From contig CAZYDW010000005.1 in assembly GCA_964646445.1 (NCBI GenBank), positions 1,150 to 65,149 on the forward strand: a stretch of DNA of 64,000 nucleotides, read 5' to 3'. This DNA is from an uncultured Bacteroides sp. (lineage in GTDB: Bacteria > Bacillota > Clostridia > Oscillospirales > Acutalibacteraceae). Made by a program: the position numbers and the translations under genes. Numbering within the stretch: position 1 is the first letter of the stretch; each line of letters opens with the position of its first letter. Under the pieces are notes generated by a model. It searched no databases, had not been told where the DNA came from, and saw nothing but the letters and a program-made list of their open reading frames with translations. Positions 1-12,494 of this stretch are shown here, piece after piece.

Positions 1-532
1 TTATACCTTCAGCAAATTTCATCGGGTTAAACTGTGCCTGATTTTTAAAGCAGACAGCTCCTGCTGTTTTTATTGGAATATTTGGAGTTCGGCAAAAATC
101 GGCAGTATATCCTATTTTACTTAATGCGTCAATTTCTTTTTCAAGCTTTGCCCGGTTATTTATTGAGTAAACATAATTATCCTTTACTTCATAATCACAG
201 TCAATATTTTTACAGATTCTTTTATATTCATCAAAAGCTTTTTTGTTTGCATTAAAATACATTTGCGCCTTTTGAATGCCATAGTTTTTGATTATTCTGT
301 CATATATAAGCCCTGTCTGATAGGTTATTTTTGCTGTTGTGTGTGAGCTCGTTTTACCGAAAACTCTGTCCCTTTCGGCGATAACACAGTCAATATTTTT
401 CTGCTTTAACATATATGCGCTTAATATCCCTGTGAGTCCCGCACCGATTATCAGTACATCGGTTTTTATATTATTACCCTCTAATTTTTCAAAGCTTTTA
501 AGCTTTGTATCGTTTTGCCAAACTGATTCCAT
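1..532 (-). CDS. FAD-dependent oxidoreductase (PuuB/YhfW-like), runs off the window edge
   Basis: Not in the ORF track. ATG at 532 with GAGGTG SD; reads MESVWQNDTKLKSFEKLEGNNIKTDVLIIGAGLTGIL (Rossmann GxGxxG). Confidence 0.8.
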   Translation of the reverse strand, partial: MESVWQNDTKLKSFEKLEGNNIKTDVLIIGAGLTGILSAYMLKQKNIDCVIAERDRVFGKTSSHTTAKITYQTGLIYDRIIKNYGIQKAQMYFNANKKAFDEYKRICKNIDCDYEVKDNYVYSINNRAKLEKEIDALSKIGYTADFCRTPNIPIKTAGAVCFKNQAQFNPMKFAEGI

Positions 533-592
533 ATATCGCACCTCGTCAATAGTATTTGCCGTAAGCAATTTAATATAACCTTCTTTGCTCAC

Positions 593-621
593 TTGTATTA
601 AAAAAAGATTTAATGTATAAT
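593..621 (+). promoter_or_regulatory. sigma-A-type promoter of the larE operon
   Basis: TTGTAT-17 nt-TATAAT upstream of ATG 649. Confidence 0.5.
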
Positions 622-648
622 TTAATTAATTAATTTTAGGGTGCAGTT

Positions 649-1392
649 ATGAACATAAATGATTTTTTTAATAAGCACAAAAAAGTTGCGGTTGCCGTTT
701 CAGGAGGCGTTGATTCGGCTGTACTTCTTCATATTGCTTTAAAGTATTGTGATGATGTTAAGCCTGTATTTGTGAAAACACCGTTTCAGCCTGAATTTGA
801 GCTTAATGATGCTGAAAAGCTTTGCGGCAATTTTGCAATTAAACTTACAGTTTTATATTCTGATGTTTTAAATGACGATAATATTACCTCCAATATGAGC
901 GACAGATGCTATTACTGCAAGAAAAACATATTTAACGAAATTATATCATACGCGTCAAGGCTTGACGGCTGCGATATTATCGAGGGTACAAATATAACAG
1001 ATGATATTTCTGACCGTCCCGGATACAGGGCACTTCAGGAGCTTGGCGTTCTATCTCCGTTTCGTATTTGTAAAATTTCAAAAAGTGAAATAAGAAGCTA
1101 CGCAAAGGATAATAATATTTTTTTATTTGATAAGCCTTCATATTCCTGCCTTGCAACAAGAATTTCACCGGGTACGGCAATAACCCGTGAACTGCTTGAT
1201 ATTACCGAAAAATCCGAAAAAGCGCTTTATGAGCTCGGATTTAAGGATTTCAGAATAAGATATATTAATTCAAATGCAAAGATTGAAATTAACGAATCCG
1301 ATTTTAACAATTTTATTAATATGCGCAAAAAGATTATTGAAAGGCTTCAGCCTTATTATAATGAGATTTATCTTGATTTAAAAGGAAGGTAA
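649..1392 (+). CDS. larE: ATP-dependent sulfur transferase LarE (nickel-pincer cofactor biosynthesis)
   Basis: PP-loop SGGVDS, RCYYCK, SYSCLATR; clustered with larB and larC. Confidence 0.9.
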   Translation: MNINDFFNKHKKVAVAVSGGVDSAVLLHIALKYCDDVKPVFVKTPFQPEFELNDAEKLCGNFAIKLTVLYSDVLNDDNITSNMSDRCYYCKKNIFNEIISYASRLDGCDIIEGTNITDDISDRPGYRALQELGVLSPFRICKISKSEIRSYAKDNNIFLFDKPSYSCLATRISPGTAITRELLDITEKSEKALYELGFKDFRIRYINSNAKIEINESDFNNFINMRKKIIERLQPYYNEIYLDLKGR

Positions 1393-1396
1393 ATAT
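1381..1396 (+). repeat. 16-bp direct repeat, left copy (AAAGGAAGGTAAATAT)
   Basis: Identical to 2629-2644; contains the larE stop codon and an SD-like AAGGAAGG. Confidence 0.9.
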
Positions 1397-1397
1397 A

Positions 1398-2090
1398 ATG
1401 AAAAAGGTTGTAAAAATAATAGCAATTATACTTGCATTATCCTGCTTATGCTGTTGCTCGGCTACGGGCTTAAATAGTGCGTCAGTTAAAAAGCAAGCGT
1501 TAAATTATTTGTGTGAAAAGTATGATGCTGAAGAAGACGAATTTGAGCTTGTAGATTATAACAGACCTCATATATATTGGAAAGAACATTATATATTTTT
1601 TCAAAAACCGGTTTGGATTAATCCTTCATTTGAGTTTCGATATAACGGACGATTGTTTATTGTCAGTAAGATGAACAATGAATTTTATGATGATTATCAA
1701 TTAGAAGATGTTGAAACATGGTGCACGGAATGGTGTCAAATTAATGTAGATGAAAGAATTATCGGTATCGATTTATCTACTAATGACATATTAAATTATC
1801 AACTTACACAAAATGATAAATATTTTTATATTATTTCCAAAAGTGATTCAAAAAAATTGTTAATTAATTATATGGATAAAACGACTTTTCCGGTATTTTG
1901 TTACAAAGATACGCAGGATTCCAATAGTCATTCTATCAATGAAGAATTAAGCAAGTCAATAAAAGAAACCTTGAATTCCCAATCGGATTGTTCTTCTGTT
2001 CAAATAGATGTTCCATTAGTAATAGAAACAGAGAAACTTGCTGAAGACAGTTGGTATAGACATACCGAATCAGAAAATAAAACAAATTAA
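1398..2090 (+). CDS. hypothetical lipoprotein/exported protein, AT-rich
   Basis: Basic N-terminus, hydrophobic stretch and Cys cluster (LSCLCCCS); visibly AT-richer than the lar genes. Confidence 0.65.
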   Translation: MKKVVKIIAIILALSCLCCCSATGLNSASVKKQALNYLCEKYDAEEDEFELVDYNRPHIYWKEHYIFFQKPVWINPSFEFRYNGRLFIVSKMNNEFYDDYQLEDVETWCTEWCQINVDERIIGIDLSTNDILNYQLTQNDKYFYIISKSDSKKLLINYMDKTTFPVFCYKDTQDSNSHSINEELSKSIKETLNSQSDCSSVQIDVPLVIETEKLAEDSWYRHTESENKTN

Positions 2091-2128
2091 CTTTTAGTAA
2101 AATACTATGCTTTAAGGAGAAGTATCTA

Positions 2129-2650
2129 ATGAAAAATAAAATATTCTCATCATTCATAATAGTATTAACTATTTCTTTATTGTTTTCATTTCCTCTAGAA
2201 TCAGAGGCAAATAATGCTATTTATTCCTCTGAATATATTGGAACATATGATGCAGATACACCCATGGAATTTTATATTTACACCATAAACACTGTCGATA
2301 ACACATTCACAGAGCATGTAAATATCAATCATCAGCTTGTAACAATAAGCAAAGATATTTCTGGAACACTGTCTTTATACGATAACTATTATACTTGTAG
2401 TTTTGGTTTCACATATTACTGGTGGATTACAAATTATGACGCGATTTTTGACATTAGTGTTGATCCATTCACCGGAATAGCCACAGGCTATGGCGGAGGT
2501 GGAATTCTTATAAGTAGTGATGATATATTTCTAACTGGCACAACAAATAGGCTTTACAACAAAGAGCTATCATATAGTGAAAACGATATGAAGATGTGTA
2601 TGTCACTATCAAAAGCAATGTATTCTGCAAAGGAAGGTAAATATGACTAA
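2129..2650 (+). pseudogene. exported protein, probably C-terminally truncated at the direct repeat
   Basis: AAGGAG SD and signal-peptide-like N-terminus; the last codons (KEGKYD*) come from the repeat and the larB start. Confidence 0.5.
2629..2644 (+). repeat. 16-bp direct repeat, right copy
   Basis: Identical to 1381-1396; supplies the SD and the AT of the larB start codon. Confidence 0.9.
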
Positions 2651-3392
2651 AGATGAAATTAAAGCAATGCTGACAGATGTTGCCGACAGAAAGCTGTCTG
2701 TTGAAGATGCTTTGAATAAGCTTAAAATTCAGCCGTATGAGGATTTGGGCTTTGCCAAGATAGATTATCACAGAGGCATAAGACAAGGCGCGTCAGAGGT
2801 TATATTCGGCGAAGGCAAAACAAAGCAGCAGATACTAAAAATAATTCAGGCAATGCTTCAAAGCGGTGAGAAGAATGTCCTTATAACAAGAATGTGTAAG
2901 GAAACATATGACTATGTCAGTTCTGTCGTTTCACTATTTTATGATGAGCTTTCACATATTGCAGTTGCAGGCGATTTTAATAAGAATGAAAACGGCGTTG
3001 GAAAAATTGTAATCGCAACCGGCGGAACAAGTGATATACCAATTGCCGAGGAGGCTGCGTTAACTGCTGAATTTTACGGCAGTAATGTAGTCAGGCTTTA
3101 TGATGTCGGCGTTGCAGGCGTTCACAGGCTGCTTGATAATGCGGATATACTTACAAGCGCACGGGTTGTTATCGCGGCAGCCGGTATGGAGGGCGCGCTT
3201 GCAAGCGTTATCGGCGGATTGGTTGACTGCCCTGTAATAGCATTGCCCACAAGTATCGGATACGGTGCAAGCTTCGGCGGGCTGTCGGCGCTTTTATCAA
3301 TGCTTAATTCCTGTGCAAGCGGCGTAAGCGTCGTTAATATTGATAACGGTTTTGGAGCAGGTTATCTCGCTGATATGATTAATAAAATGTAG
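2643..3392 (+). CDS. larB: nickel-pincer cofactor biosynthesis protein LarB (AIR carboxylase-like)
   Basis: GTSDIPIAEEA, DVGVAGVHRL, AGMEGALASV, PTSIGYG, VNIDNGFGA motifs. Confidence 0.93.
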   Translation: MTKDEIKAMLTDVADRKLSVEDALNKLKIQPYEDLGFAKIDYHRGIRQGASEVIFGEGKTKQQILKIIQAMLQSGEKNVLITRMCKETYDYVSSVVSLFYDELSHIAVAGDFNKNENGVGKIVIATGGTSDIPIAEEAALTAEFYGSNVVRLYDVGVAGVHRLLDNADILTSARVVIAAAGMEGALASVIGGLVDCPVIALPTSIGYGASFGGLSALLSMLNSCASGVSVVNIDNGFGAGYLADMINKM

Positions 3393-3399
3393 GTGCTTT

Positions 3400-4566
3400 A
3401 TGAATATACTTTATCTTGAATGTAATATGGGTGCAGCAGGAGATATGCTTACCGCTGCGCTGTGGGAGCTTGTTGATAACAAAAAGCAGGCGCTTGAGGA
3501 TATTAATAAAATAGGTATTCCTCATACGAAAATATCTTTTGAAGAAAAAATCAGCTGTGGCGTCAGGGGGACGCATACAAGCGTTATTATTGACGAACTG
3601 CAAGAGGGGAGTGTTCACGCTCACGATTTTCACAGAAGGGTCGATGACATATTTACAATAATAAACAGCCTTAATTTGCCTGATGATATCAAATCAGAAG
3701 CGCTTGATGTTTATAAAATAATTGCAGATGCCGAAAGCTTGGCACACAATACGAGCGTCAATATGGTGCATTTTCACGAGGTGGGTATGCTTGATGCTGT
3801 AAGCGATATTGTTATTGCAGCCTATCTGATAAGGCAGCTTAATATTGACAAAATTATATGCTCCGCAATAAATACAGGTAACGGTAATGTCAAATGCAGT
3901 CACGGCATATTGCCTGTTCCGACACCTGCAACGGCACATATTTTAAAAAATATACCCTACTATAAAAGCGATTATAACTGCGAGCTTTGCACGCCCACGG
4001 GTGCTGCACTGATAAAAAAGTTTGTTGATTATTTCGGCAGGATGCCTTTAATGGAGGTTGAAAAAATCGGCTGCGGTATCGGCACAAGAGAGCTTGGCGC
4101 CGCAAATTGTGTGAGAGCCTTTTTAGGCAGGGAGATTATTGATAATACTGTCAGCGAGCTTTTATGTAATATTGACGATATGACAGCGGAGCAGCTAAGC
4201 TTTGCAGCAGAAAAAATTAAAGAGCAGGGTGCGCTTGATGTTTCGCTTGAAGCTATCGCAATGAAAAAGAACAGGTCAGGCTATCTTTTGCGTGTGTTAT
4301 GCGGTAAAAATGAAAGCGAAAAATTTATTAAGCTTATTTTCAAATATACATCTTCAATAGGTATCAGGGAATGTATATGCTCAAGATATGTTCTTGACAG
4401 GCAAATTAAATCCGTCCATACACCTTATGGCAATATTAATGTAAAATATGCATCGGGATACGGTGTAACCAAATGTAAAATTGAGTATGATGATATAAAA
4501 AGAACAGCAGATGATAATGAAATGACCTTCTGTGAAGCTGAAAAAATTTTAAAAAAATATATCTAA
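3400..4566 (+). CDS. larC: nickel insertion protein LarC (C1 and C2 in one ORF)
   Basis: GAAGDM, HFHEVG, HGILPVPTPAT, ELCTPTGAA, NIDDM, KIEYDD motifs. Confidence 0.92.
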   Translation: MNILYLECNMGAAGDMLTAALWELVDNKKQALEDINKIGIPHTKISFEEKISCGVRGTHTSVIIDELQEGSVHAHDFHRRVDDIFTIINSLNLPDDIKSEALDVYKIIADAESLAHNTSVNMVHFHEVGMLDAVSDIVIAAYLIRQLNIDKIICSAINTGNGNVKCSHGILPVPTPATAHILKNIPYYKSDYNCELCTPTGAALIKKFVDYFGRMPLMEVEKIGCGIGTRELGAANCVRAFLGREIIDNTVSELLCNIDDMTAEQLSFAAEKIKEQGALDVSLEAIAMKKNRSGYLLRVLCGKNESEKFIKLIFKYTSSIGIRECICSRYVLDRQIKSVHTPYGNINVKYASGYGVTKCKIEYDDIKRTADDNEMTFCEAEKILKKYI

Positions 4567-4656
4567 TTATGTTATTATCGGTGTAAAAATGTGCTTATAT
4601 TGTTGCAATGTTTACAAATTGTTCACAAAATACCTTGATTTATGGAAATTTTATTA

Positions 4657-4685
4657 TTGAAATTTGCTAATCTAAATGTTATACT
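4657..4685 (+). promoter_or_regulatory. sigma-A promoter with extended -10
   Basis: TTGAAA-17 nt-TATACT, with TG one base before the -10. Confidence 0.65.
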
Positions 4686-4714
4686 ACTATTAGACTTATA
4701 AGGGGGTTAATGCC

Positions 4715-5584
4715 TTGAGTACTAAAGAGGAAAAGAAAGAAAAAAAGCTTGCAAAAAAAGAAGCAAAGCTTGAAAAGAAAAACGCTAAAGCTGAAGCAAG
4801 AGCCGCAAAATATCAGGCAAAGGCTGAAAAAAGGCATGCTAAAGATTATCAGAAATTTGTAAAAGACACAGAAAAGAAAAACAAAAAGCTTCAGGCTAAA
4901 GCCGCAAAGGACGGTAAGGAGTTTACTCCTATTGCTGTTCCCGCAATTTCGGATTTCCGGTCAAAAAAAGAGATTAAGGCTGAAAAGGCTTGTCAAAAGG
5001 CTTATGCAAAATATGTTAAAAAGCTTGAAAAGAAAAACGCAAAAACCGAAAAGAAATGTGCAAAAAAAGGTAAGCCGTTTGTACCTGCTGCCATTCCTTC
5101 ATATGAAGAATTTGCAAACAGTGCTGCTGCTGAAAACAAGGCAGGTAAAATCGTTTTAACAGTTATACTTATTCTTTTGATTTGGTTACTTGTTTACTTC
5201 TTGATTATGTATATTAATTATGAGTACATACCGGCGCACGAGGAAACTACTGTATCTGAAGGAGCGGCCGGCGAATATGAATCATATTCAAATCCGCATG
5301 AAATAACAACCACCCCTGATTACAGTATCGCTGATGCAAAGCTTTATCTAAAGCAGGTTCTTGCCGATAATTGGAAGAACCTCGGTTACAGCAGTGACCC
5401 GTCAGGCAGCGCGATTTCATATAATAATCGTATTGAAACCATTAACGGTGCCGATTGCTATATGTTCACCTGCGGCGGCAAAACCTATGCTGTTGCCGTT
5501 AAGCTTTCCGCTTGCTACTACAGCAGCAACGGCGAATACAAGCCGCTCACCTTCAATAATACAAACTATTTATTTGGTGACTGA
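4715..5584 (+). CDS. single-pass membrane protein with Lys/Ala-rich repeated N-terminus
   Basis: TTG start after GGGGG SD; two ~46-aa repeats, one TM helix (IVLTVILILLIWLLVYFLIMYI), C-terminal domain. Confidence 0.75.
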   Translation: MSTKEEKKEKKLAKKEAKLEKKNAKAEARAAKYQAKAEKRHAKDYQKFVKDTEKKNKKLQAKAAKDGKEFTPIAVPAISDFRSKKEIKAEKACQKAYAKYVKKLEKKNAKTEKKCAKKGKPFVPAAIPSYEEFANSAAAENKAGKIVLTVILILLIWLLVYFLIMYINYEYIPAHEETTVSEGAAGEYESYSNPHEITTTPDYSIADAKLYLKQVLADNWKNLGYSSDPSGSAISYNNRIETINGADCYMFTCGGKTYAVAVKLSACYYSSNGEYKPLTFNNTNYLFGD

Positions 5585-5624
5585 AAATTCATTTTAAAGA
5601 TACATCAAAAACAAACCTGATAAA

Positions 5625-5670
5625 AAGACTGCAATCCTTCCCATACGGGTTGGTTGCAGTCTTAATTTTT
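5625..5670 (+). terminator. intrinsic terminator
   Basis: AAGACTGCAA/TTGCAGTCTT stem followed by AATTTTT. Confidence 0.6.
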
Positions 5671-5699
5671 AGTTCTGATTAAAGCTTTGAATTGAGATG

Positions 5700-5741
5700 A
5701 AAAGAAGTCCCTCTACAGAGCAAAAAGGCTGTAAAGAGACT
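5700..5741 (-). terminator. intrinsic terminator of the ACT/DUF711 operon
   Basis: Imperfect AAGTC..CTACAG / CTGTAA..GACTT stem, followed on the minus strand by CTTTT. Confidence 0.45.
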
Positions 5742-5823
5742 TGACTTGTTTAACGCAGGAGCATCGCTATGATTTAAAAATTAAATTTATACCCCTAATC
5801 TTTTTTTACAGATGTAAGCAGGT

Positions 5824-7179
5824 TCAGTTTTTTAGGCTGTGCAGCGGTGCGGGAATTTTACCGCCGCGGTTGATAAACCGTGATGGTGATTTGGTGTTTA
5901 CCGGCATAACAGGTCCGCTGCCGAGTAAGCCGCCGAATTCAAGCTCATCGCCTATTTTTTTGTTAATTGCAGGTATAACCCTGACTGCTGTAGTTTTTCC
6001 GTTTACCATACCTATTGCCGCTTCGTCGGCAATAATACCGCTTATAACTTCCGGTGTTGTATCGCCGGGTATTACAATCATATCCAAACCGACAGAACAA
6101 ACCGCTGTCATTGCTTCAAGCTTTTCAATGGTAAGCGCTCCGCTTCTTGCCGCATCAATCATACCAGCGTCCTCAGAAACCGGGATGAATGCACCTGAAA
6201 GACCGCCGACACTTGACGATGCCATTACGCCGCCCTTTTTAACTGCGTCATTAAGCATTGCAAGGCAGGCTGTTGTGCCGGCACCTCCGCATTGCTCCAA
6301 GCCGATTTCCTCCAATATATGAGCAACCGAATCACCGACTGCAGGTGTTGGCGCGAGCGAAAGGTCAACAATACCGAACGGTACATTGAGCCTTTTTGAT
6401 GCTTCAACACCTACCAGTTGCCCCATTCTCGTTACCTTGAATGCGGTTTTTTTGATTAGCTCTGCAATTTCGTTAATTGAATATTCGGGATGCTTTGATA
6501 CGGCGCTTCTTACAACTCCGGGTCCGGAAACTCCGACATTTATAACGCAGTCCGGCTCTGAAATACCGTGAAATGCGCCTGCCATAAACGGATTATCTTC
6601 AGGGGCGTTGCAAAAAACGACAAGCTTTCCCGCTGCTATACAGTTTTTGTCCTTTGTAAGAACGGCAGCTTCCTTAACCTTTTGCCCCATAATTTTAACG
6701 GCGTCAAGGTTAATGCCTGCTTTTGTTGAACCGATATTTACCGATGAGCAAACGAAATCTGTATTTGCAAGAGCCTGCGGTATTGAATTTATAAGCTGCA
6801 AATCTCCTGCGGCAAAGCCCTTTTGAACGAGTGCGCTGTAGCCGCCGATGAAATTAACTCCTATTGTTTTTGCGGCCTTGTCAAGCGTAAGCGCATATTT
6901 AAGAATATCTCCGCCGCTTATGCCTGCGAGTAGTGCAATAGGGGTAACGCTTACACGCTTATTTATTATCGGTATTCCGTATTCACGCTCAATCTGTTCG
7001 CCGGTTTCAACAAGCTTTTCAGCCTTTGTGCAAATCTTGTCATATATTTTTTGACAAGCATTATCTATGCTTGAATCGGCGCAGTCAAGAAGCGAGATAC
7101 CCATTGTTGTAGTTCTTATGTCAAGACATTCGTCCTGAATCATTCTGATTGTCTCAAGAATATCATTTGTATTAATCAA
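5824..7179 (-). CDS. DUF711 / PFL-family protein (UPF0210)
   Basis: [44 protein letters not shown]; adjacent ACT partner. Confidence 0.92.
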
Positions 7180-7190
7180 GAGTTGCCCTC

Positions 7191-7460
7191 CTATATTCTG
7201 TGCATTGAATTAAAAATTTCCTCATGCATTGCATGAATTGAAAGAGCGTTTTCTTCTCCGTATTTATTAAGCTCATCTGCAAATTTTGTAAATTCCACAG
7301 TGCTTTTTGAAATGTCAGCCATCATAATCATACAAAAGATATCTTCCATGACAGACTGTGAAACCTCTGTAATGTTGATTTCGTATTTTGCACATATGCC
7401 CGAAACCTTTGAAAGAATACCTACTGTATCTTTACCGACTACTGTAATTACAGCTCTCAT
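7191..7460 (-). CDS. ACT-domain protein (UPF0237)
   Basis: Start moved to ATG 7460 (GGAGG SD); [15 protein letters not shown]...IFNSMHRI. Confidence 0.9.
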
Positions 7461-12410: not shown

Positions 12411-12494
12411 TTATACGCCTTGTCCGGCTGCAGCAAGTCGTATAATAATTTTAATAAACTATTTGCAGTCGGAAAGGCTATGGAAATTATTATG
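12411..12494 (+). repeat. ~85-nt structured leader element, copy 1 (before metY)
   Basis: Near-identical to 13811-13896; a 13-position hairpin whose loop is complementary to the segment at the SD. Confidence 0.85.

What the first reader, a model, noticed from the sequence alone, without database searches (positions are those of the whole stretch)
1381..2644. 1.25-kb AT-rich two-gene cassette inside the lar operon, bounded by an exact 16-bp direct repeat that duplicates the larE stop / larB start junction
Seen: AAAGGAAGGTAAATAT occurs at 1381-1396 and 2629-2644. Removing one repeat plus the insert restores ...GGAAGG TAA AT ATG (larE stop joined to larB start). The first inserted gene uses the left copy as its SD and larB uses the right copy, so the operon stays translatable. 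No integrase or transposase lies inside. Inference: microhomology or site-specific capture of foreign secreted-protein genes at a translational junction, potentially reversible.
Basis: partly seen in the sequence, partly recalled or inferred. Interest (0 to 1): 0.65.

Follow-up and report, generated by a model that had tools for sequence, protein, structure and literature searches.

The report
Foreign gene fragment inserted between larE and larB
A 1.2-kb piece of a variable surface-protein locus from a related gut bacterium was spliced exactly between two nickel-cofactor genes, copying 16 bases of the landing site so that every gene still has a ribosome-binding site; this is a clean but fairly ordinary scar of sloppy recombination, not a new kind of mobile element.

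Summary
AAAGGAAGGTAAATAT occurs exactly twice in the 1.68-Mb genome, at 1381-1396 and 2629-2644. It brackets a 1,232-bp low-GC insert between larE and larB. In at least seven same-genus relatives larE abuts or overlaps larB, and the junction rebuilt by removing the insert aligns with theirs.

The insert is not a tidy two-gene cassette. ORF1 is a complete member of an uncharacterised membrane-anchored family. ORF2 is only the N-terminal domain of a secreted Lipase_3/LRR protein that runs to about 1,030-1,330 aa in relatives. Its last six codons and its stop come from the duplicated 16-mer and the first bases of larB. The rest of that large gene is absent from this genome, so the fragment was imported. 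I found no transposase, integrase, terminal inverted repeats, attC-like hairpin, or second use of the 16-mer.

Best reading: a single illegitimate "insertion with target duplication", probably guided by microhomology, that survived because the duplicated ribosome-binding site keeps the lar genes translatable.

Not testable here: an empty allele within the species and an excised circle.

In related genomes the native loci are arrays of ORF1 genes plus variably truncated N-domain stubs, which is a side observation worth recording.

The parts
649..1392 (+). larE (247 aa), intact. Its last four codons plus the stop (AAA GGA AGG TAA) lie in the left repeat.
   Evidence: NCBIfam TIGR00268 LarE scores 214.6 bits against a cut-off of 150. 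It aligns over residues 1-247 to the LarE of relatives.
1381..1396 (+). Left copy of the 16-bp direct repeat. It holds the larE 3' end and stop, and now serves as the Shine-Dalgarno site and spacer for ORF1.
1397..2628 (+). 1,232-bp inserted fragment. The phase is arbitrary within the repeat. It has low GC, no internal terminator and no terminal inverted repeats.
   Evidence: It is absent between larE and larB in L009-L014 and L017. No terminator was found. No terminal inverted repeats were found: best 19 of 50 matches. There is no match in phage, plasmid or viral collections.
1398..2090 (+). ORF1 (230 aa). A complete member of an uncharacterised family with an N-terminal hydrophobic helix or lipoprotein-like signal and an alpha/beta domain. 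The family motif is FYDDYQLEDxExWCTEW.
   Evidence: 35 homologues were found, the best at 51% identity. It aligns full-length and keeps all invariant residues. The AlphaFold2 model has pLDDT 88.6, and no PDB fold match reaches E<=0.001.
1495..1765 (+). Segment of ORF1 that is 91% identical at the nucleotide level to a gene in another species of the genus (L035). The flanking core genes of that species are only 69-76% identical.
2129..2650 (+). ORF2' (173 aa): a signal peptide plus the N-terminal domain of a large secreted Lipase_3/LRR(/dockerin) protein, truncated. Homology runs to ...SKAMYSAK. The last residues, EGKYD, and the stop are read from the right repeat and from larB bases 1-8.
   Evidence: It matches only residues 1-170 of open frames of 1,184-1,328 aa in relatives. 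The large proteins carry Lipase_3, LRR and Dockerin domains. No remainder of the large gene is in the own genome.
2629..2644 (+). Right copy of the 16-bp direct repeat. It holds the Shine-Dalgarno site, the spacer and the first two bases of the larB ATG.
2643..3392 (+). larB (249 aa), intact. Its start overlaps the end of ORF2' by 8 nt (ATGACTAA).
   Evidence: NCBIfam NF033503 LarB scores 281 bits against a cut-off of 175. It aligns from residue 1 to relatives at 55-72% identity.
3400..4566 (+). larC (388 aa), the last gene of the larE-larB-larC operon.
   Evidence: Pfam Ni_insertion at 1.4e-125. NCBIfam LarC1 and LarC2 both match.

Best explanation
This is a single illegitimate recombination event of the kind called 'insertion with target duplication'. 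It placed an imported 1,232-bp fragment into the 2-nt gap between the larE stop and the larB start.

The fragment came from a variable accessory locus found across this genus. In that locus a small membrane-anchored protein gene (ORF1) sits directly upstream of a gene of about 1,250 codons for a secreted Lipase_3/LRR protein. The fragment begins 1 nt before the ORF1 start codon and ends at about codon 167 of the large gene.

Sixteen bases of the target were copied to both sides: the larE tail, its stop, the larB Shine-Dalgarno site, the spacer and the AT of the ATG. As a result larE keeps its stop. ORF1 acquires the larB ribosome-binding site. The truncated large gene (ORF2') reads through the right copy and stops 5 nt into larB. 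larB keeps its own ribosome-binding site and is now coupled to ORF2' rather than to larE. There is no terminator in the insert, so all five genes are probably co-transcribed.

The most likely route (inferred, not shown) is Ku-independent joining at purine-rich microhomologies. This could be two template switches or annealing of incoming single-stranded DNA. The return join would fall in AAAGGAAG, which also fits codons Ala-Lys-Glu of the large gene. The 16 nt would then be re-copied because the exit and re-entry points on the target were 16 nt apart. A two-step variant, in which a larger insertion was later trimmed by an AAAGGAAG-mediated deletion, gives the same product.

The event persisted because this geometry is one of the few that leaves the lar operon expressible.
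For: Shown:
- The 16-mer is exact and unique to these two positions.
- The empty larE/larB junction is present in at least seven same-genus relatives and is collinear with the reconstructed junction.
- ORF1 followed by the large gene is a conserved adjacent pair elsewhere, in G001, G017, G136 and others.
- ORF2 matches only the first ~170 residues of proteins of 1,030-1,330 aa, and homology runs right up to the repeat.
- The own genome lacks the rest of the large gene and any second ORF2.
- A 271-nt stretch of ORF1 is 91% identical to another species whose core genes are 69-76% identical, which indicates recent exchange.
- There is no recombinase domain, terminal inverted repeat, hairpin or terminator in the insert.
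- The genome has no Ku gene but does have ComEC.
- Both junctions are confirmed in an independent assembly.

Literature:
- Insertions with target duplication and without mobility genes are described, and their repeats often span translation start or stop sites so that the target genes stay intact (PMC2853133).
- Annealing of ectopic single strands at microhomologies is an established route of integration (10.1101/2023.11.22.568220).
Against: The donor sequence is unknown. The closest whole-fragment DNA match in 145 genus genomes is 73%, so microhomology at either junction cannot be verified. The nearest homologue has GCAAAAGATGAAGAA where the window has GCAAAGGAAGG, which is suggestive only.

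The left boundary falls neatly 1 nt before the ORF1 start codon. That is unlikely for a random break and needs either Shine-Dalgarno-region microhomology or strong survivorship selection.

Units of similar size (about 1.2 kb, ORF1 plus a truncated N-domain) recur in other genomes, which could hint at a defined module.

No conspecific genome with the empty site was available. The closest LarE anywhere is 57% identical, so the empty state is inferred from other species only.
Confidence: 0.7

Rival explanations
1. Two-step origin. A larger fragment (ORF1 plus most or all of the large gene) was first inserted with the 16-bp duplication. A later deletion between an internal AAAGGAAG and the start of the right repeat then removed the 3' part of the large gene and brought larB back next to a translated ORF.
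For: The right junction lies in an 8-nt string that fits both the codons of the large gene and the repeat. Truncated N-domain stubs of this gene are common in related genomes, so secondary truncation is frequent in this family.
Against: It needs two rare events where one is enough. There is no remnant of lipase or LRR sequence anywhere in the genome. It still requires the same unexplained 16-bp duplication.
Confidence: 0.15
2. The ORF1 plus N-domain unit is a discrete non-autonomous mobile cassette. It would be moved in trans by an unidentified recombinase or transposase that either makes 16-bp target duplications or uses the 16-mer as an att core, and that prefers ribosome-binding-site/start-codon junctions.
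For: The direct repeat is exact, and the left end sits exactly at a start codon. Units of about 1.2 kb with ORF1 plus a truncated ORF2 recur: there is a 1,223-bp unit in G089, and others in L119 and L120.
Against: The 16-mer occurs nowhere else in the genome. There are no terminal inverted repeats and no hairpin or attC-like fold. No recombinase is in or next to the insert. The truncation points of ORF2' differ between genomes, at aa 61, 76, 80, 125, 142, 162, 167 and 182. The units in native arrays are bounded by 26-85-nt homologous intergenic repeats, not by target duplications. The start-codon repeat at 12411 and 13810 shares no sequence with the insert.
Confidence: 0.08
3. The arrangement is ancestral, or it is an assembly artefact. 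Either the relatives lost the two genes by deletion between the repeats, or the MAG contig is chimeric.
For: Deletion between 16-bp repeats would produce exactly the junction seen in relatives. The genome is a 72-contig MAG.
Against: The junctions in relatives differ in sequence (an ATGA overlap and a LarE tail of LDLKERPD) and show no trace of the insert in at least six species. The gene pair lives at other loci in relatives. ORF2' is a truncated fragment. Independent Logan contigs span each junction at 100% identity.
Confidence: 0.03

Closest known systems
'Insertion with long target duplication' (Nobusato et al. 2000; Furuta, Abe & Kobayashi 2010, PMC2853133)
   Same: Genes are inserted with no transposase, integrase or inverted repeats. 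The insert is flanked by a direct duplication of a sequence that is single-copy at the empty site in a relative. The repeats often span a translation start or stop, so the target genes stay intact. Insertion into operon-like structures has been noted.
   Different: That class was defined on restriction-modification genes, with duplications of more than 30 bp and intraspecific empty sites. Here the cargo is a surface-protein gene fragment, the duplication is 16 bp, and the empty site is seen only in other species. The authors' proposed driver, double-strand breaks made by the restriction enzyme, has no counterpart here.
Microhomology-mediated illegitimate recombination or template switching: double illegitimate recombination and homology-facilitated illegitimate recombination in natural transformation, SPDIR (10.1101/2023.11.22.568220), and FoSTeS/MMBIR-type events
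   Same: Foreign DNA without homology is joined at short purine-rich matches. The breakpoints are arbitrary, with one inside a gene. A short flanking duplication of the target is expected when the exit and re-entry points differ.
   Different: Laboratory SPDIR patches are much shorter. Microhomology could not be verified here because the donor is unknown.
Target-site duplications of IS elements, transposons and MITEs
   Same: An exact direct repeat flanks an insert.
   Different: There is no transposase, no terminal inverted repeats and only a single copy in the genome. Sixteen bp is longer than the usual <10 bp (PMC2853133, Figure 1 legend). One end of the insert lies inside a truncated gene.
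Integron gene cassettes
   Same: Promoterless ORFs sit in an expressed array and are read from an upstream promoter.
   Different: There is no attC hairpin, no GTTRRRY core at the boundaries and no integron integrase nearby. The second 'cassette gene' is a fragment.
Insertion of ORFan genes into existing operons (Price, Arkin & Alm 2006, PMC1480536)
   Same: New narrow-range genes gain expression by landing next to native genes in an operon.
   Different: That study found insertions inside pre-existing operons to be much rarer than additions at operon ends. The present case is an internal insertion with the junction scar still legible.
Orphan-module arrays of polymorphic toxin loci (Rhs/CDI)
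   Same: In relatives the native ORF1/large-gene loci are arrays of small partner genes plus truncated fragments of the large gene. These look like leftovers of serial replacement.
   Different: Here the N-terminal part, not the C-terminal part, is the one retained and varied. No toxin or immunity function has been shown. This resemblance rests on my own knowledge.

Membership tests
lar (nickel-pincer nucleotide cofactor) biosynthesis operon | LarE, LarB and LarC equivalogs encoded together | tested here: met
   TIGR00268 scores 214.6 bits (cut-off 150). NF033503 scores 281.4 bits (cut-off 175). TIGR00299 and NF052512 both score above their cut-offs. The same larE-larB-larC order is seen in L009-L014 and L017.
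Insertion with (long) target duplication (Nobusato/Furuta) | The insert is flanked by direct repeats that are single-copy at the empty site of a related genome | tested here: met
   Relatives have one junction, and it is collinear with the reconstructed empty site. The relatives are other species, not conspecific strains.
Insertion with (long) target duplication (Nobusato/Furuta) | No mobility genes or inverted repeats in or next to the insert | tested here: met
   No recombinase domains were found. No terminal inverted repeats were found.
Insertion with (long) target duplication (Nobusato/Furuta) | Duplication longer than 30 bp (the authors' operational cut-off) and restriction-modification cargo | tested here: not met
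   The duplication is 16 bp, and the cargo is ORF1 plus a fragment of a lipase/LRR gene.
IS element, transposon or MITE | Transposase or terminal inverted repeats, and multiple genomic copies | tested here: not met
   No transposase domain was found. The insert ends match at best 19 of 50 positions. The insert is single-copy in the genome.
Integron cassette | attC imperfect palindrome at the 3' end of the cassette, and an adjacent integron integrase | tested here: not met
   ssDNA folds of both junctions are no better than shuffled sequence, with z-scores of -0.9 to +1.7. The flanking ORFs are larE, larB, larC and an FAD oxidoreductase.
Integrase-mediated island at a gene's 3' end | A tyrosine or serine recombinase gene within the element, and an att core repeat | tested here: not met
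   A repeat is present, but there is no recombinase. The element is 1.2 kb and one end lies inside a truncated gene.
Microhomology-mediated illegitimate recombination | Short sequence identity between donor and target at each breakpoint | tested here: inconclusive
   The donor was not found; the best DNA match is 73%. The nearest homologue reads GCAAAAGATGAAGAA at the right breakpoint, where the window reads GCAAAGGAAGG.
ORF1 family (uncharacterised, FYDDYQLEDxExWCTEW motif) | Full-length alignment with the invariant residues kept | tested here: met
   Alignment A1 of 24 sequences has 14 invariant and 22 near-invariant columns, and ORF1 keeps all of them.
Large secreted Lipase_3/LRR proteins (ORF2 family) | N-domain followed by a Lipase_3 domain with GHSRGAA, then LRRs | tested here: not met
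   ORF2 has only the N-domain (173 aa). Lipase and LRR parts are absent from the window and from the genome.

The most novel reading that the evidence does not exclude
The unit of ORF1 plus the N-terminal domain may be a genuine exchangeable module of a recombinase-free variation system for giant surface lipase/LRR proteins in this genus. Arrays of ORF1 genes with N-domain stubs would be spare or spent modules. The lar insertion would then be an off-target product of the same copying process. That process would start at a start codon, capture the host ribosome-binding site and make target duplications of about 16 bp. It might be related to the other 'junction-duplicating' insertions noted elsewhere in this scan.
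Probability: 0.08. Interest if true: 0.7.

Novelty: new member of a known kind. Interest (0 to 1): 0.33.

Why it matters
This is an unusually legible natural example of how foreign DNA with no homology and no mobility genes can enter the middle of a working operon without breaking it. The landing-site duplication supplies a ribosome-binding site to the newcomer and returns one to the downstream native gene. Insertions inside existing operons are reported to be rare (PMC1480536), and the 'insertion with target duplication' route is known mainly from restriction-modification genes (PMC2853133). A case with a non-restriction-modification cargo, a truncated passenger gene and a translational-coupling junction widens that picture.

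It also draws attention to an uncharacterised, fast-changing gene pair in a genus of gut Clostridia: a membrane-anchored protein plus the N-terminal domain of a giant lipase/LRR/dockerin protein. This pair is exchanged between species and leaves arrays of stubs. It does not establish a new mechanism.

Tried and rejected
- **Reads and excised circle.** I tried to look for reads spanning the empty junction or an excised circle. Both look-up of sequencing runs and read laying were closed, so this was not tested.
- **Conspecific empty allele.** Exact-protein look-ups of LarE and LarB return only the filled allele, from one sample, SRR10165008. The closest LarE among 5.8 billion proteins is 57% identical. 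The JGI metagenome scan gave at most 47%. No conspecific genome exists in these collections.
- **Donor search.** DNA searches of 145 genus genomes and 401 family genomes gave at best 73% identity. Nothing was found in viral contigs, phages or plasmids.
- **The 16-mer flanking other cassettes.** There are no other exact copies in the genome.
- **Transposon or integron reading.** Rejected: no terminal inverted repeats, no hairpins and no recombinase.
- **NHEJ capture.** Disfavoured: there is no Ku gene in a genome that is 99% complete.
- **Link to the start-codon repeat.** The roughly 50-copy repeat reported earlier for this genome shares no sequence with the insert.
- **Composition as proof of recent import.** Rejected as weak, because the family is 25-33% GC in every host.
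- **Function from structure.** The ORF1 model is confident but has no PDB match. The ORF2 model is too poor to search (pLDDT 57.8).
Full report
**1. Observation**

The sequence AAAGGAAGGTAAATAT is present, exact, at 1381-1396 and 2629-2644. The bases on either side differ, so the repeat is exactly 16 nt.

In the whole 1.68-Mb assembly these are the only exact copies. The nearest other matches have 1-2 mismatches and lie on other contigs.

Length alone would not prove anything. With this base composition about 1-2 exact 16-nt direct repeats spaced 0.3-3 kb are expected per genome, and 23 exist, mostly in repeat arrays. The two copies lie exactly where homology to relatives says LarE ends and LarB begins.

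**2. Gene content**

- larE: 649-1392
- ORF1: 1398-2090
- ORF2: 2129-2650
- larB: 2643-3392
- larC: 3400-4566

LarE, LarB and LarC all exceed the NCBIfam equivalog cut-offs (Pfam). ORF1 and ORF2 hit nothing in Pfam, NCBIfam, PHROGs or PADLOC.

There is no terminator-like site between larE and larC. ORF2 ends at a TAA 5 nt inside larB, giving an ATGACTAA overlap.

**3. Empty site**

A search of 40 relatives found LarB in 30. In seven of them (L009-L014 and L017, all in the same genus) LarE ends within a few bases of the LarB start, usually as an ATGA overlap, and nothing lies between them.

The LarE tail in those genomes is ...CTTGATTTAAAGGAGCGACC... (LDLKER..). In the window it is ...CTTGATTTAAAAGGAAGGTAA (LDLKGR*). 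Removing 1397-2644 gives a junction collinear with theirs on both sides. For example, L012 reads TATCTTGATTTAAAGGAGCGACCGGACGATGACTAAGGAAG. So the empty state is ancestral for the genus and the window carries an insertion.

No conspecific genome could be found:
- The exact LarE and LarB proteins occur only in one sample, SRR10165008, in the filled form.
- The next-best LarE among 5.8 billion proteins is 57% identical.
- The JGI metagenome scan gave at most 47%.

The Logan contigs of SRR10165008 cover window 1-1752 and 1740-7392 at 100% identity. Both junctions are therefore confirmed by a second assembler.

**4. What the insert is**

ORF1 is a full-length member of a family of about 230-aa proteins, with 35 hits and a best identity of 51%. 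It keeps all 14 invariant and 22 near-invariant positions of the family alignment. AlphaFold2 gives a confident model (pLDDT 88.6): a long N-terminal helix plus an alpha/beta domain. No PDB fold match reaches E<=0.001.

ORF2 looked like an orphan in the word-indexed search, but six-frame searches of the genus showed otherwise. It matches only the first ~170 residues of open frames of 1,184-1,328 aa in G001, G017, G130, G049, G110, G150 and G086. The exhaustive HMMER search gave 28 representatives. Every match lies at the N-terminus of the protein, and eight of the proteins are 1,030-1,298 aa long.

The full-length proteins carry Lipase_3 (GHSRGAA), LRR and InlB-type repeats, and in G017 a dockerin. 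Each lies directly downstream of an ORF1-like gene.

At the amino-acid level the window's ORF2 follows G001's protein through ...SYSE(N/D)DMKMCM(S/E)LSKAMYSAK. G001 then continues DEETIQEELG..., whereas the window reads EGKYD* from the right repeat and the first bases of larB. So the right end of the insert cuts a large gene at about codon 167.

tblastn of two full-length proteins against the whole genome finds only this N-terminal piece. The donor locus is therefore not in this genome.

**5. Evidence for import and for a mobile gene pool**

Window 1495-1765 is 91% identical to a gene on contig L035 (ERR13991646). The ABC-transporter, GH2 and PPIase genes on that contig are only 69-76% identical to their orthologues here. 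Similarity collapses on both sides of that segment, so the gene is a mosaic.

At the corresponding place in this genome (C3) there is no ORF1-like gene.

The family is low in GC (25-33%, GC3 16-25%) in every host examined, while neighbouring genes have 37-45% GC. The low GC of the insert (the 1st-3rd percentile of this genome's ORFs) therefore marks it as part of this accessory pool but does not date the event.

No close donor exists among 145 genomes of the genus or 401 of the family; the best match is 73%. The fragment is unrelated to anything in the viral, phage or plasmid collections.

**6. Mechanism**

Features expected of an element moved by its own or a trans-acting enzyme are absent:
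- no recombinase or transposase domain
- no terminal inverted repeats
- no hairpin at either junction
- no other copy of the insert or of the 16-mer

One end of the insert is an arbitrary point inside a gene. This is the signature of illegitimate recombination.

The class closest in the literature is 'insertion with long target duplication'. In that class, genes enter without any mobility function and are flanked by a duplication of the target. [quoted passage not shown]

The genome has no Ku gene, which argues against classical end-joining. ComEC is present, which is weak support for DNA uptake.

The right junction lies in AAAGGAAG. That string fits both the target and the Ala-Lys-Glu codons expected in the large gene; G001 has GCAAAAGATGAAGAA there. 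The left junction lies in a Shine-Dalgarno-plus-AT-spacer context that resembles the native ORF1 leaders, for example L003 GATTAAAAAGGAGATTCATATG and L001 AAGGAGAAATTATATG.

I therefore favour microhomology-guided joining, by template switching or by annealing of incoming single strands, as in SPDIR (10.1101/2023.11.22.568220). The 16 nt would be copied twice because the exit and re-entry points on the target were 16 nt apart. This step is inference: the donor is unknown.

A two-step route, a larger insertion later trimmed by deletion at AAAGGAAG, cannot be excluded.

Survivorship probably explains the neat geometry. Most other insertions here would have cut larB off from translation.

**7. 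The native loci of the gene pair (side finding)**

In several relatives the locus is an array: ORF1, then a truncated N-domain, then another ORF1, and so on. The N-domain stubs are cut at aa 61, 76, 80, 125, 142, 162, 167 and 182. The units are bounded by conserved intergenic repeats:
- 85 nt at about 90% identity, 1,223 bp apart, in G089
- 38 nt at 97% identity in L120
- 26-39 nt in L089 and L094

Two stubs are complete genes within their contigs (L119 and L120). In L119 homology to the long form continues past an in-frame stop.

The variable cut points argue against a fixed cassette boundary. They fit serial, homology-anchored replacement of the ORF1 plus N-domain part of the locus. This is the basis of the low-probability 'module' reading.

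**8. Verdict**

It was not a two-gene cassette and not site-specific capture.

The case is a new member of a known kind. Price et al. report that insertions inside existing operons are uncommon compared with additions at operon ends (PMC1480536), which gives the example some illustrative value.

Earlier notes of this scan list similar junction-duplicating insertions in other genomes. I treated these as leads only. Two of them pointed me to the papers cited above, which I read myself.

Noticed in passing
L001 5932-7239 (G089); L120; L119; L085, L089, L090, L093, L094: In related genomes the native loci of the ORF1/large-gene pair are arrays. ORF1 paralogues alternate with N-terminal stubs of the lipase/LRR gene cut at different codons (61 to 182). 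The units are separated by conserved 26-85-nt intergenic repeats. They look like scars of serial replacement of the N-terminal module.
   Followed up: partly
window 1495-1765 vs L035 6448-6716: There is 91% nucleotide identity to an ORF1-like gene of another species whose core genes are only 69-76% identical. Similarity collapses on both sides, so this is a mosaic or gene-conversion tract. The Logan assembly of SRR10165008 breaks at window 1740-1752, inside this tract, possibly because a second similar copy exists in that metagenome.
   Followed up: partly
window 649-1392 (larE): This LarE carries CYYCKK and SYSCLATR cysteines and is named 'sacrificial' by NCBIfam. The cysteine pattern may instead fit the [4Fe-4S]-dependent LarE type described for Thermotoga (PMC9283937, abstract seen). 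I did not check this by alignment.
   Followed up: no
window 4715-5584: A 289-aa ORF lies downstream of larC. It has a lysine/alanine-rich N-terminal half built from imperfect 21-nt repeats, one predicted membrane segment, and only a weak Sigma_reg_N hit.
   Followed up: no
G000 contig C5 74947-75526 (outside the window): A 23-nt exact string, GAAATTAATAAGGATTATTAAAT, recurs at a spacing of about 65 nt. It looks like a CRISPR array.
   Followed up: no
G000 contig C6 57100-58650: A dense array of 15-29-nt exact direct repeats has periods of about 69 nt and multiples of that. It is probably a repetitive (LRR-like or cell-surface) coding region. It is also the region hit weakly by the LRR part of the G017 large protein.
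   Followed up: no
L027 (G018:C3 78599-79332): larB of relative G018 appears split into two pieces, residues 3-88 and 102-248, in separate open frames. It may be a pseudogene or a frameshift.
   Followed up: no
L016 2242-2642 (G003): This relative has a gap of about 400 nt with no ORF between larB and larC, and ilvC rather than larE lies upstream of larB. The layout of the lar cluster varies within the genus.
   Followed up: no
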